This document shows positions 33,638-34,311 of a DNA stretch of 64,000 nt, one piece after another. Within the stretch, counting starts at the first letter, position 1, and every line of letters starts with the position of its first letter. The translations under genes were made by a program, and so were the position numbers. A model generated the notes under the pieces. The model was not told the DNA's origin and made no database searches. It worked only from the letters and a program-made list of their open reading frames with translations. Origin of the DNA: an uncultured Lentisphaeraceae bacterium (GTDB taxonomy: Bacteria > Verrucomicrobiota > Kiritimatiellia > RFP12 > UBA1067); the NCBI GenBank assembly GCA_964386385.1, contig CAYLRN010000007.1, positions 54,374 to 118,373 of the forward strand. The letters are read 5' to 3'.

Positions 33638-33647
33638 CCCTCCGCTC

Positions 33648-33676
33648 TTGCGTTCCCCTCGGCGTTTGTGTATAAT
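33648..33676 (+). promoter_or_regulatory. promoter TTGCGT-N17-TATAAT (conserved CTCTTGCGTTCCC…TTTGTGTATAAT motif)
   Basis: -35 at 33648-33653 and -10 at 33671-33676. The -10 hexamer overlaps the spurious ATG at 33668, which argues for the downstream start at 33704. Confidence 0.45.
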
Positions 33677-33703
33677 GCGAGGTGTTCAGAATTGGAGCAG
33701 ACA

Positions 33704-33907
33704 ATGGCAGAGCTTGTCCATAATGTGGTTATGTCTTTCAAGGCGGGCTGCGCTCGCTTTGTCCGCGGCTTTGTCGTCGAGTCTCGCCCCGTCCCCGAAC
33801 TTCAAAGCGTCGACCGCTATTTCGCCAATGTCGGAGAGCATCTTCTGAACGCCCGAAACCGCTTTGAGCGCGAGTACGTGGAGAATGTTCGCCATGCCGA
33901 CGAGTGA
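33704..33907 (+). CDS. small hypothetical protein (67 aa)
   Basis: GGAGCAGACA-ATG Shine-Dalgarno sequence. ATGCCGACGAGTGA overlap with the next gene, consistent with translational coupling. Low GC (about 55%). Confidence 0.45.
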   Translation: MAELVHNVVMSFKAGCARFVRGFVVESRPVPELQSVDRYFANVGEHLLNARNRFEREYVENVRHADE

Positions 33908-34292
33908 GACGCGCATAGCCGCCCGAAGCGAAAGCAGAGTTGAACTGTGTTATCAGCGCTCCACGCTTCCGACCAAGGAGAATGTCGAGGCATACGAGGC
34001 TTTTTGCCCAGGCGCTGCCAAGATTATGCTCGACATGGCGCAGTACGATCAGCATGAGCATTGGCAGAGCATAAGGCGCATATCCACGGCAGATCTTGTG
34101 GTTCGTCTGGTTGGAATGACGTTTTGCTTTCTTCTCTGCCTTGCGTTGATTTGCGGCGGAGTTTATCTCATGGCGACTGGGCATTACGTGACAGGAGCGG
34201 CGTCTGTCGCCGTTGCCCTTGTCGCCGTAATCGGATCTCTGGCCTATGGTGGGCGTCCGCCGGTCCAGCAGACGCCTTCGCACGAGAACTAA
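33894..34292 (+). CDS. DUF2335-like small membrane protein
   Basis: …PTKENVEAYEAFCPGAAKIMLDMAQ…HEHW motif resembles DUF2335 (P..L..YE…PGAA..I). Two C-terminal TM helices. Low GC. Confidence 0.5.
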   Translation: MPTSETRIAARSESRVELCYQRSTLPTKENVEAYEAFCPGAAKIMLDMAQYDQHEHWQSIRRISTADLVVRLVGMTFCFLLCLALICGGVYLMATGHYVTGAASVAVALVAVIGSLAYGGRPPVQQTPSHEN

Positions 34293-34311
34293 TGGCAAGA
34301 AGGAGATTGCA

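What the first reader, a model, noticed from the sequence alone, without database searches (positions are those of the whole stretch)
33640..34300. Low-GC two-gene cassette: a 67-aa protein translationally coupled to a DUF2335-like membrane protein, with its own conserved promoter
GC drops from about 68% to about 55% exactly over this 650-bp stretch. It holds a strong TTGCGT-N17-TATAAT promoter, a small soluble ORF with a good Shine-Dalgarno sequence, and a 4-codon overlap (ATGCCGACGAGTGA) into a 132-aa protein with a P..L..YE..PGAA motif and two C-terminal TM helices (DUF2335-like). This small soluble plus small membrane, co-translated, horizontally acquired layout resembles toxin-antitoxin, abortive-infection or phage-exclusion modules. 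Neither protein has an assigned function.
Basis: partly seen in the sequence, partly recalled or inferred. Interest (0 to 1): 0.5.

Follow-up and report, generated by a model that had tools for sequence, protein, structure and literature searches.

The report
Stranded prophage two-gene membrane module
The two small overlapping genes are real and are a divergent copy of a two-gene unit (a small helical protein plus a DUF2335 membrane protein) that temperate phages of many bacterial phyla carry next to their integrase. Here it sits alone in front of the proline gene proC, and its function is still unknown.

Summary
ORF-A (33704-33907, 67 aa) overlaps ORF-B (33894-34292, 132 aa) by 14 nt. A TTGCGT-N17-TATAAT promoter precedes them. 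GC is 0.56 against 0.69 in the flanks, and GC3 is 0.61-0.65 against 0.86-0.88.

- **ORF-B.** It falls below Pfam's DUF2335 threshold (13 bits, cut-off 25). Its family profile still matches canonical DUF2335 (hhalign 99.6%), and it matches phrog_3996 (E 3e-17).
- **ORF-A.** It is a divergent member of a small-protein family absent from Pfam and NCBIfam. That family lies directly upstream of DUF2335 in 79 of 80 viral contigs.
- **The unit in phages.** In Staphylococcus, Streptococcus, Pseudomonas and E. coli prophages the pair sits at the end next to the integrase. Three of the four also show a promoter-like site just upstream, and the two Gram-positive phages have terminators on both sides, which is the layout of a classic "moron".
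- **This locus.** The pair has no phage around it and no terminator before proC. Related genomes have lost ORF-B at this same locus at least twice independently, while keeping ORF-A in both and the promoter in most.
- **Function.** Untested. My best guess is a membrane effector with a co-translated regulator or antidote, acting in phage exclusion, abortive infection or addiction. This is not a known defence system.

Interest is moderate.

The parts
33648..33653 (+). -35-like hexamer TTGCGT, starting 11 nt after the stop codon of the upstream 176-aa gene
   Evidence: TTG-N20-TATAAT occurs 3 times in the window against 0.01 expected. The same hexamer is present in relatives L110 and L018.
33671..33676 (+). 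-10 hexamer TATAAT, preceded by GTG, 27 nt upstream of the ORF-A ATG
   Evidence: A -10-like element is present in the mobile copies, at 24-28 nt from the ATG in most of them.
33694..33697 (+). Shine-Dalgarno GGAG for ORF-A, 6 nt before the ATG
   Evidence: read directly from the sequence.
33704..33907 (+). ORF-A: a 67-aa soluble protein predicted to be a two-helix hairpin. It is a divergent member of the small partner family that precedes DUF2335 genes.
   Evidence: Family conservation. AlphaFold: helices 2-23 and 35-64, pLDDT 69.6. No hydrophobic segment. Partner HMM: 7.9 bits, above the best of 2200 shuffles (5.9); other family members reach 21.9 bits. hhalign of the two families: 90%, E 1.6e-6 over 65 columns. 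dN/dS against L018: 0.17-0.22.
33894..33907 (+). 14-nt overlap ATGCCGACGAGTGA, holding the ORF-B start inside the end of ORF-A. This is the inferred site of translational coupling.
   Evidence: The pattern ATGN8TGA is kept in the window and in all nine other intact-pair loci checked.
33894..34292 (+). ORF-B: a 132-aa divergent DUF2335 inner-membrane protein with a cytoplasmic N-terminal domain and a C-terminal two-helix membrane hairpin
   Evidence: phrog_3996, E 3.4e-17. Pfam DUF2335: 13.1 bits, below the cut-off of 25. The family profile finds 905 representatives, and 48 of 53 sampled hits are DUF2335. hhalign against canonical DUF2335: 99.6%, E 4.9e-24. AlphaFold pLDDT 87.8.
33966..34061 (+). 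DUF2335 core motif, residues 25-56: LPTKENVEAYEAFCPGAAKIMLDMAQYDQHEH
   Evidence: Alignments. The invariant residues L25, P26, E29, N30, A33, Y34, E35, G40, A41, A42, M45, M48 and A49 are all present.
34107..34175 (+). Predicted transmembrane helix 1, about residues 72-94, continuous with the long cytoplasmic helix
34185..34247 (+). Predicted transmembrane helix 2, about residues 98-118
34300..34305 (+). AAGGAG Shine-Dalgarno sequence of proC, in the 19-nt gap after the ORF-B stop. No terminator lies in between.
   Evidence: The only terminator-like hit is a weak 5-bp stem inside ORF-B, and shuffled sequence gives 2.1 such hits.
34312..35118 (+). proC (pyrroline-5-carboxylate reductase), a host gene probably co-transcribed from the cassette promoter
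   Evidence: TIGR00112, E 1.8e-70. GC3 0.862. Co-transcription is inferred from the 19-nt gap and the missing terminator.

Best explanation
The cassette is a chromosomally stranded copy of a phage moron, meaning an autonomous accessory transcription unit that temperate phages carry. It has two translationally coupled genes: a small cytoplasmic helical-hairpin protein (ORF-A) and a DUF2335 inner-membrane protein (ORF-B).

**Shown**
- Both proteins belong to two families that are almost always linked, across phyla.
- In prophages the pair lies at the end next to the integrase, with promoter-like and terminator-like sites around it.
- In this lineage the unit entered the site between a type II secretion (T2SS)-like pseudopilin operon and proC before the related lineages diverged.
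- It has a host-type promoter and no terminator before proC.
- ORF-B has since been deleted at least twice independently in sister lineages. ORF-A survived in both, and the promoter in two of the three deleted lineages sampled.

**Inferred**
- The promoter expresses the pair constitutively and reads on into proC.
- ORF-A and ORF-B are made together through the 14-nt overlap.
- ORF-A binds the cytoplasmic N-terminal domain or the membrane hairpin of ORF-B, giving a membrane-anchored complex.
- ORF-B is the effector, which would perturb the membrane or block entry. ORF-A is its regulator or antidote.
- The unit serves the prophage or host in conflicts with other phages (superinfection exclusion or abortive infection), in the manner of RexA/RexB.
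For: **The pair is conserved.**
- The ORF-A family has 43 proteins of about 67 aa.
- ORF-B follows ORF-A with the same 14-nt overlap in every intact locus.

**Family assignment.**
- ORF-B: phrog_3996 at E 3.4e-17. Its profile finds 905 representatives, and 48 of 53 sampled are DUF2335. hhalign gives 99.6%.
- ORF-A: hhalign gives 90% and E 1.6e-6 against the family of ORFs that precede canonical DUF2335 genes.

**The linkage is general.**
- 77 of 80 viral DUF2335 loci have a 40-140 aa ORF ending at the DUF2335 start. The baseline for other genes is 20%.
- The partner HMM hits upstream of 79 of 80 loci.

**Position in prophages.**
- The pair lies beside the integrase in Pseudomonas MD8, Staphylococcus E72, an E. 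coli O121 prophage and the Kiritimatiellae locus L007. In Streptococcus Javan433 it lies at the end of the record, just after the lysin.
- The commonest large flanking genes are integrases (11), lysins (about 11) and terminases (about 9) among 122 scanned.
- Modules are enriched near contig ends: 22 of 57 against 17.7% expected.

**Moron anatomy.**
- E72 and Javan433 show terminator, promoter, pair, terminator.
- L007 has a terminator after ORF-B.
- The definition of a moron is taken from PMC3594210.

**Foreign composition.** GC3 is 0.61-0.65 against 0.86-0.88.

**Old residence.** Nucleotide identity to L110 is equal across ORF-A, proC and the upstream gene, at 91-92%.

**Two different ORF-B deletions.**
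- L018 and L022 keep a 9-codon stub, MPTSETRIA*.
- L110 has window 33884-34324 replaced by 91 unrelated nt.

**ORF-A is less constrained once ORF-B is gone.** dN/dS is 0.37-0.54, against 0.08-0.11 for proC. Up to 4 of 17 conserved columns are changed.
Against: - No experiment and no known family gives a function. PADLOC has no match for ORF-A, ORF-B or canonical pairs.
- The fold search returns only generic helical matches.
- The window copy has no phage genes around it and no terminator, so strictly it is no longer a moron.
- ORF-B may be on its way out here too, since sister lineages lost it.
- The relaxation of ORF-A rests on 66 codons and is imprecise.
- Retention of ORF-A could simply be a by-product of keeping the promoter and leader for proC.
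- In two viral loci (L094, L095) the partner looks frameshifted while DUF2335 is intact. That argues against DUF2335 being lethal without its partner, unless these are assembly errors.
- Low GC3 has persisted through a long residence, which is not explained.
Confidence: 0.55

Rival explanations
1. Toxin-antitoxin or addiction module. ORF-B is a membrane toxin, and ORF-A is a co-translated protein antidote that binds it. The pair stabilises the element that carries it. This resembles CptB/CptA (SdhE/YgfX) or SpoIISB/SpoIISA.
For: - The small gene comes first and overlaps the larger one, and the sizes are typical.
- Copies sit among HicAB, Gp49(HigB)/HI1420-type and DUF4160/DUF2442 pairs in L001 and L009.
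- The membrane gene was lost twice while the small gene was kept.
- ORF-A is less constrained after ORF-B is lost.
Against: - ORF-A has no detectable DNA-binding fold or family.
- No known toxin family matches ORF-B.
- L094 and L095 appear to keep DUF2335 with a broken partner.
- The constant position at the integrase-proximal end of prophages fits lysogen-expressed accessory genes at least as well as addiction.
Confidence: 0.2
2. Lysis-timing accessory. The two-helix membrane protein would act as a holin or antiholin-like factor, and the small protein would modulate it, helping the phage lysis cassette.
For: - An N-in/C-in two-TM topology, as inferred here, is that of class II holins (background knowledge; helices; orientation not tested).
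- The pair often follows the endolysin gene.
- A few DUF2335 proteins give weak hits to holin families: Phage_holin_3_6, best E 1e-4, in 2 of 53.
Against: - E72 and Javan433 already have annotated holins. A terminator separates the pair from the lysin, and the pair has a promoter-like site of its own.
- In E. coli, MD8 and L007 the neighbour is the integrase, not a lysin.
- The Kiritimatiellae copies, including the window, have no lysin nearby.
Confidence: 0.08
3. Native housekeeping genes. ORF-A and ORF-B would be ordinary chromosomal genes or leader peptides of the proC operon, with low GC for local reasons.
For: - The cassette lies beside proC in three related lineages, with the same divergence as the neighbouring genes.
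- It has a host-type promoter.
- No terminator precedes proC.
Against: - GC3 is 0.2-0.25 below the neighbours in every lineage.
- Homologous pairs lie in unrelated prophage or integrative contexts.
- Both proteins belong to phage-borne families found across phyla.
- ORF-B is dispensable, having been lost at least twice.
Confidence: 0.05
4. Relic with a co-opted promoter. The proteins no longer matter here, and what selection keeps is the promoter and 5' leader that drive proC. ORF-B is simply not yet deleted in this genome.
For: - The promoter and ORF-A are kept in L110 and L018 after ORF-B was lost.
- proC begins 19 nt after ORF-B with no terminator.
- ORF-A evolves faster in the lineages lacking ORF-B.
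Against: - The window's ORF-B keeps all 18 family-invariant residues and an intact reading frame.
- The window's ORF-A departs from the family at only 1 of 17 conserved columns.
- L022 has lost the promoter but still keeps ORF-A.
Confidence: 0.12

Closest known systems
Pfam DUF2335 (PF10097) / PHROG phrog_3996 'membrane protein', as in Pseudomonas phage MD8 gp31, Staphylococcus phage E72 gp32, and the E. coli O121 prophage protein WP_001113310
   Same: - Homologous over the full length: hhalign 99.6%, phrog E 3.4e-17.
- Same architecture: the cytoplasmic P..YE..PGAA..I..MA motif followed by two C-terminal TM helices.
- Same overlapping small upstream partner.
- Same phage or integrase association in the mobile copies.
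   Different: - It scores below Pfam's gathering threshold (13 bits against 25).
- It lacks the EQ.HR part of the motif.
- It is a narrow clade. The one homologue that carries an organism name and the single species-representative genome hit are both Kiritimatiellae, and the remaining hits are unnamed metagenome contigs.
- The window copy lies outside any prophage and is fused to the proC transcription unit.
Phage morons (HK97 gp15 type; Cumby, Davidson and Maxwell, PMC3594210)
   Same: - An autonomous accessory unit whose GC differs from its neighbours.
- A promoter-like site of its own, and in L007, E72 and Javan433 a terminator-like site of its own.
- Placed next to the integrase or at the attachment-site end of prophages.
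   Different: - It has two coupled genes instead of one.
- The window copy has no terminator and no surrounding phage.
- No phenotype is known. HK97 gp15 has a demonstrated exclusion function (the gp15 details are from my own knowledge).
Lambda RexA/RexB, and the mycobacteriophage Sbash and Butters gp30/gp31 prophage defence pairs
   Same: A prophage-expressed pair consisting of a cytoplasmic protein and a small polytopic membrane protein, lying next to the lysogeny genes. This resemblance comes from my own knowledge and was not tested here.
   Different: - No sequence similarity: PADLOC has no hit.
- The membrane protein here has 2 TM helices, not 4.
- The soluble partner is far smaller (67 aa).
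CptB/CptA (SdhE/YgfX) and SpoIISB/SpoIISA membrane-toxin toxin-antitoxin systems
   Same: A small soluble protein encoded next to a small integral membrane protein and thought to bind it. In cptBA the small gene comes first and the membrane protein has 2 TM helices and about 135 aa. This is from my own knowledge.
   Different: - No Pfam hit to those families.
- The domain order is reversed, with the TM helices at the C-terminus here.
- Toxicity is untested.

Membership tests
Pfam DUF2335 (PF10097) | Score at or above the curated gathering threshold (25 bits) | tested here: not met
   13.1 bits, E 0.093, residues 30-53 only.
Pfam DUF2335 (PF10097) | Homology to family members over the whole protein, by profile comparison | tested here: met
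   The ORF-B family profile retrieves 905 representatives, and 48 of 53 sampled carry DUF2335. hhalign gives 99.6%, E 4.9e-24, over 113 columns.
Pfam DUF2335 (PF10097) | N-terminal cytoplasmic motif (P.P..L..YE...PGAA.RIL.MAE.EQ.HR) followed by two TM helices | tested here: met
   LPTKENVEAYEAFCPGAAKIMLDMAQYDQHEH followed by two hydrophobic helices. The EQ.HR part has degenerated.
PHROG phrog_3996 | Significant full-length HMM match | tested here: met
   E 3.4e-17, residues 16-125 against profile positions 32-141 of 152.
Partner + DUF2335 two-gene module (defined here) | A small same-strand ORF ending at or overlapping the DUF2335 start | tested here: met
   14-nt overlap in the window. Found in 77 of 80 viral loci against a 20% baseline.
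Partner + DUF2335 two-gene module (defined here) | The small ORF is homologous to the partner family (motifs F..G...L.l and DW..VG.D...A...Y) | tested here: met
   hhalign of the ORF-A family against the partner family: 90%, E 1.6e-6, 65 columns. Window ORF-A scores 7.9 bits, above the best of 2200 shuffles (5.9), and family members reach 21.9 bits. This is the weakest link in the argument. Earlier comparisons of the ORF-A family profile with single partner sequences were negative.
Phage moron | Own promoter | tested here: met
   TTGCGT-N17-TATAAT at 33648-33676, of the host promoter type. This is a sequence match only, and no transcript data exist.
Phage moron | Own terminator | tested here: not met
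   None in the 19 nt before proC. A terminator-like site is present after the pair in L007, E72 and Javan433.
Phage moron | Composition differs from the neighbours | tested here: met
   GC3 of 0.61-0.65 against 0.86-0.88.
Phage moron | Located inside a phage or prophage genome | tested here: not met
   The window neighbours are a T2SS-like pseudopilin operon and proC. Homologues in L007, and canonical pairs, are inside prophages.
Type II toxin-antitoxin system | Antitoxin with a DNA-binding domain, and a toxin from a known family | tested here: not met
   Neither protein matches a family in Pfam, NCBIfam or PADLOC. ORF-A is modelled as a plain two-helix hairpin.
Type II toxin-antitoxin system | Toxicity of the second gene, relieved by the first | not testable with these tools
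   Needs expression experiments.
Known anti-phage defence systems (PADLOC-DB v2) | Match to any system component model | tested here: not met
   ORF-A has none. ORF-B has only AbiEi at E 0.049. Canonical pairs give only weak hits (LeoBC E 3e-5, LeoB E 1.6e-4, PtuA E 0.012, CARF_TM E 0.026), which I read as chance matches to the membrane-helix region.
Class II holin | Encoded in the lysis cassette and required for lysis | tested here: not met
   The pair is separated from the lysin by a terminator-like site in E72 and Javan433, and those phages have annotated holins of their own. No lysin lies near the window copy.

The most novel reading that the evidence does not exclude
The small partner plus DUF2335 is an obligate, cross-phylum two-gene prophage module that no paper in the searchable library describes. 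It is linked in 79 of 80 viral loci and is present in Firmicutes, Proteobacteria, Spirochaetes and Kiritimatiellae. In E. coli it is carried by 211 of 5426 complete genomes, and in the one genome inspected it is the outermost gene pair beside the integrase.

Under this reading it encodes a new family of membrane-acting phage-conflict systems (exclusion, abortive infection or addiction), in which the small protein gates the DUF2335 effector. In this Kiritimatiellae lineage, a stranded copy's promoter would have been co-opted to drive proC, while the costly effector gene is repeatedly purged.
Probability: 0.3. Interest if true: 0.7.

Novelty: new variant of a known kind. Interest (0 to 1): 0.45.

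Why it matters
- **A testable unit.** DUF2335 is a catalogued domain, and the four papers found that mention it give it no function for this family. Showing that it almost never occurs without a specific small partner turns an anonymous domain into a defined two-gene unit. The unit also occupies the prophage slot where lysogen-expressed accessory genes sit.
- **Tractable hosts.** The pair occurs in the E. coli O121 potC prophage, S. epidermidis phage E72 and P. aeruginosa phage MD8, so it can be tested directly.
- **What this locus shows.** A phage accessory unit can be stranded in a chromosome, lend its promoter to a housekeeping gene, and then lose its membrane gene repeatedly.
- **Annotation gap.** The public gene calls for this exact sequence miss both genes.

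Tried and rejected
- **ORF-B against GenBank phages and IMG/VR.** tblastn found nothing, and the pattern scan gave 44 pattern hits with none confirmed. The Kiritimatiellae subfamily is too divergent or is missing there.
- **Species-representative genomes.** Only one hit, a Kiritimatiellaeota metagenome-assembled genome.
- **Solved structures by sequence.** Nothing for either family.
- **ORF-A family profile against single phage partner sequences.** These hhalign runs were negative. Homology appeared only after I built a partner-family profile from 53 viral sequences.
- **Literature.** 'DUF2335' gave four papers. The two I opened, both on type VI secretion, call it a phospholipase toxin domain. 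That does not fit this 2-TM family, and I think it is a slip for DUF2235, so I set them aside. The Pfam, COG, PHROG and InterPro identifiers gave nothing useful. The phage MD8 paper does not discuss the genes.
- **Attachment-site-like repeats.** No convincing flanking direct repeats around the cassette.
- **The 91-nt replacement in L110.** It shows no significant similarity to ORF-B: score 20 against a shuffle maximum of 27.
- **Weak hits treated as noise.** One partner to WXG100_2 (E 0.018), and DUF2335 proteins to LeoBC and holin families.
- **The window's source record.** An exact look-up of its ORF-B found nothing, because the public record (L115, 100% identical) did not call these genes.
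Full report
**Observation**

- ORF-A runs from ATG 33704 to TGA 33907 (67 aa). GGAG lies 6 nt upstream of the ATG.
- ORF-B runs from ATG 33894 to TAA 34292 (132 aa). The two overlap by the 14 nt ATGCCGACGAGTGA.
- TTGCGT (33648-33653) and TATAAT (33671-33676) are 17 nt apart.
- The generic promoter scan does not list this site, because the -35 hexamer matches TTGACA at only 3 of 6 positions.
- Even so, TTG-N20-TATAAT occurs three times in the window against 0.01 expected. 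All three copies end in GTGTATAAT, and all three lie 27-59 nt upstream of an ORF start.
- TATAAT is itself ten-fold enriched. This is therefore the host's own promoter type.
- GC of 33640-34300 is 0.561, in the lowest 3% of windows of that size. GC3 is 0.647 and 0.609, against 0.86-0.88 in the flanking genes.
- proC (TIGR00112, E 1.8e-70) starts at GTG 34312, 19 nt after the ORF-B stop. No credible terminator lies in between.
- Upstream lies a T2SS-like operon: T2SSF, several N_methyl pseudopilins, and 1042-aa and 176-aa proteins with no family.

**Both genes are real and travel together**

- ORF-B has 28 homologues at 50-65% identity. A profile of ORF-A finds 43 proteins of about 67 aa. The one that carries an organism name comes from a Kiritimatiellae genome, and the rest are unnamed.
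- In every intact locus recovered, the small gene is followed by the membrane gene with the same ATGN8TGA overlap.
- Contexts differ between loci:
  - L007: the pair is the last unit before a convergent integrase, in an element with PDDEXK_1, AAA_24 and HTH_17 genes, and is followed by a terminator-like hairpin.
  - L001 and L009: among HicAB, Gp49/HI1420-type and DUF4160/DUF2442 pairs.
  - L012 and L014: among ordinary enzymes.
- Nearly every copy has a TATAAT-like -10 element, 24-28 nt upstream of the ATG in most.

**What ORF-B is**

- Pfam gives DUF2335 only 13.1 bits against a cut-off of 25.
- PHROGs gives phrog_3996 'membrane protein' at E 3.4e-17 over the full length.
- A profile of the ORF-B family, scored against 1.84 billion representatives, finds 905 proteins at E of 0.001 or better. 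Of 53 sampled, 48 carry DUF2335.
- hhalign against canonical DUF2335 gives 99.6% and E 4.9e-24 over 113 columns.
- The AlphaFold model (pLDDT 87.8) shows a short beta-hairpin, a helix, then a long helix (41-94) that runs into TM1, followed by TM2 at 98-118. Hydropathy agrees.
- Structure and PDB searches add nothing.

**What ORF-A is**

- It matches no family in Pfam, NCBIfam, PHROGs or PADLOC.
- Looking at canonical DUF2335 genes in annotated phages, I saw a small overlapping ORF in front of each: MD8 (79 aa), E72 (71 aa) and Javan433 (68 aa).
- I then fetched 80 viral contigs with canonical DUF2335.
  - 77 have a same-strand ORF of 40-140 aa ending at the DUF2335 start. The figure for other genes in the same loci is 20%.
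  - These small proteins share two motifs, F..G.gsvLdl and sDW..VG.Dm..A...y.
  - An HMM built from 53 of them hits upstream of 79 of the 80 loci. That includes four loci not used to build it.
- The same HMM scores ORF-A family members up to 21.9 bits. The window's ORF-A scores 7.9 bits, above the best of 2200 shuffles (5.9).
- hhalign of the two families gives 90% and E 1.6e-6 over 65 columns.
- The ORF-A model is a two-helix hairpin of modest confidence.
- The partner family is absent from Pfam and NCBIfam. In PHROGs it is split among families of unknown function.
- I regard this homology as probable but not certain.

**Where the module lives**

- Among 122 large flanking ORFs of the viral modules, the commonest families are phage integrase (11), lysins (about 11), terminases (about 9) and S24 repressors (3). 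Two are Ltp exclusion lipoproteins.
- Modules are enriched near contig ends: 22 of 57 against 17.7% expected.
- In E72 and Javan433 the order is terminator, promoter-like site, partner, DUF2335, terminator.
- In E. coli, 211 of 5426 complete genomes carry one such pair. In the O121:H19 genome I inspected, it is the outermost gene pair of a potC-integrated lambdoid prophage, convergent with int. L007 has the same geometry.
- This is the anatomy of a moron as defined in PMC3594210.
- No PADLOC model matches. No paper in the searchable library assigns a function to this family.

**History of this locus**

Related genomes keep the same synteny of pseudopilin operon, 174-176-aa gene, ORF-A and proC, but lack ORF-B.

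- L018 and L022 (proC 85% identical at the protein level) retain the start of ORF-B as a 9-codon stub, MPTSETRIA*, just before the proC ribosome-binding site.
- L110-L114 (88-92% nucleotide identity) have window 33884-34324 replaced by 91 unrelated nt, which also changes the last residues of ORF-A.
- These are two different deletion events.
- ORF-A, proC and the upstream gene are equally diverged from L110, at 91-92%. The cassette therefore predates these splits. Even so, its GC3 stays about 0.2 below the host's in every lineage.
- Between the two genomes lacking ORF-B, L018 and L022, ORF-A has dN/dS of 0.37-0.54 against 0.08-0.11 for proC. ORF-A there also carries substitutions at family-conserved columns, 2 and 4 of 17.
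- The window copy is well preserved by comparison. ORF-A departs at 1 of 17 columns, and ORF-B keeps all 18 invariant residues.
- L115 is 100% identical to the window. Its public gene calls miss both ORFs.

**Interpretation**

- *Shown:* the cassette is a divergent member of a widespread partner-plus-DUF2335 phage module. It is stranded in front of proC, and its membrane gene has been lost at least twice in relatives.
- *Inferred:*
  - The two proteins form a membrane complex.
  - The membrane protein is the effector and the small protein its regulator or antidote.
  - The role lies in phage-host conflict.
  - The promoter now also serves proC.
- *Rivals:* a toxin-antitoxin addiction module, a lysis-timing accessory, native housekeeping genes (largely refuted), and a relic kept only for its promoter.

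**Verdict**

I classify the finding as a new variant of a known but uncharacterised kind. Interest is moderate, and comes mainly from the obligate pairing of DUF2335 with its partner, which can be tested in standard hosts.

Noticed in passing
window 1784-2195; also L018 5099-5554: The 18-24-nt motif TTCGTCCGCA(A/C)CGTAATC(TCAT) occurs 4 times in both orientations within a low-GC patch of the window (0.05 expected). One instance is a perfect 24-nt inverted repeat with a 29-nt spacer at 2119-2195. Five copies lie in relative L018, inside a roughly 1.1-kb insert directly upstream of the ORF-A promoter. It looks like a small dispersed palindromic, MITE-like element shared by these related genomes.
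   Followed up: partly
window 23639-23667 and 45757-45785: Two further TTGC..-N17-GTGTATAAT sites lie 59 and 32 nt upstream of ORF starts (23727, a T2SSF gene, and 45818). TATAAT occurs 10 times against 1.07 expected. Together these suggest a clear sigma-70-like promoter consensus for this high-GC organism.
   Followed up: partly
window 2610-2912: Three copies of a 69-nt repeat (67-87% identical). Read by eye, a copy translates to a motif like VTIPSDVASIGEYAFYGCISLTS, which I recall as a BspA-type leucine-rich repeat. I did not check this against any family.
   Followed up: no
window 37300-37471, 39085-39161, 12518-12591: tRNA-Arg(ACG) and tRNA-Met lie side by side inside another low-GC patch (36842-38054). 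tRNA-Pro(TGG) and tRNA-Cys(GCA) lie elsewhere. No integrase was seen in the genes checked near them.
   Followed up: partly
window 29935-33637: A 1042-aa protein and a 176-aa protein close the T2SS-like pseudopilin operon. Neither matches any Pfam family. Both are conserved in relatives, at 50% and 69% protein identity to L018.
   Followed up: no
L115 (100% identical to window 31246-35259): The public gene calls for this exact sequence omit ORF-A and ORF-B. They list instead a 76-aa antisense ORF and an N-terminally extended 290-aa proC that starts inside ORF-B.
   Followed up: yes
L118 6036-6684 (E. coli O121:H19 NZ_CP022407.1): A partner (67 aa) plus DUF2335 pair is present in 211 of 5426 complete E. 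coli genomes. In the one genome inspected it is the outermost unit of a potC-integrated lambdoid prophage, convergent with int and xis. This offers a tractable model for the module.
   Followed up: partly
L094 3684-3879 and L095 3687-3879: In two viral contigs the partner ORF is split into two pieces by a frameshift, while the DUF2335 gene is intact. This is either an assembly error or evidence that DUF2335 is tolerated without its partner.
   Followed up: no
window 33704-34292, compared with L110 and L018: The cassette's GC3 stays at 0.50-0.65 in all three lineages, while host genes are at 0.77-0.88. The cassette is nevertheless as diverged as its neighbours. The lack of compositional drift towards the host is unexplained.
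   Followed up: partly
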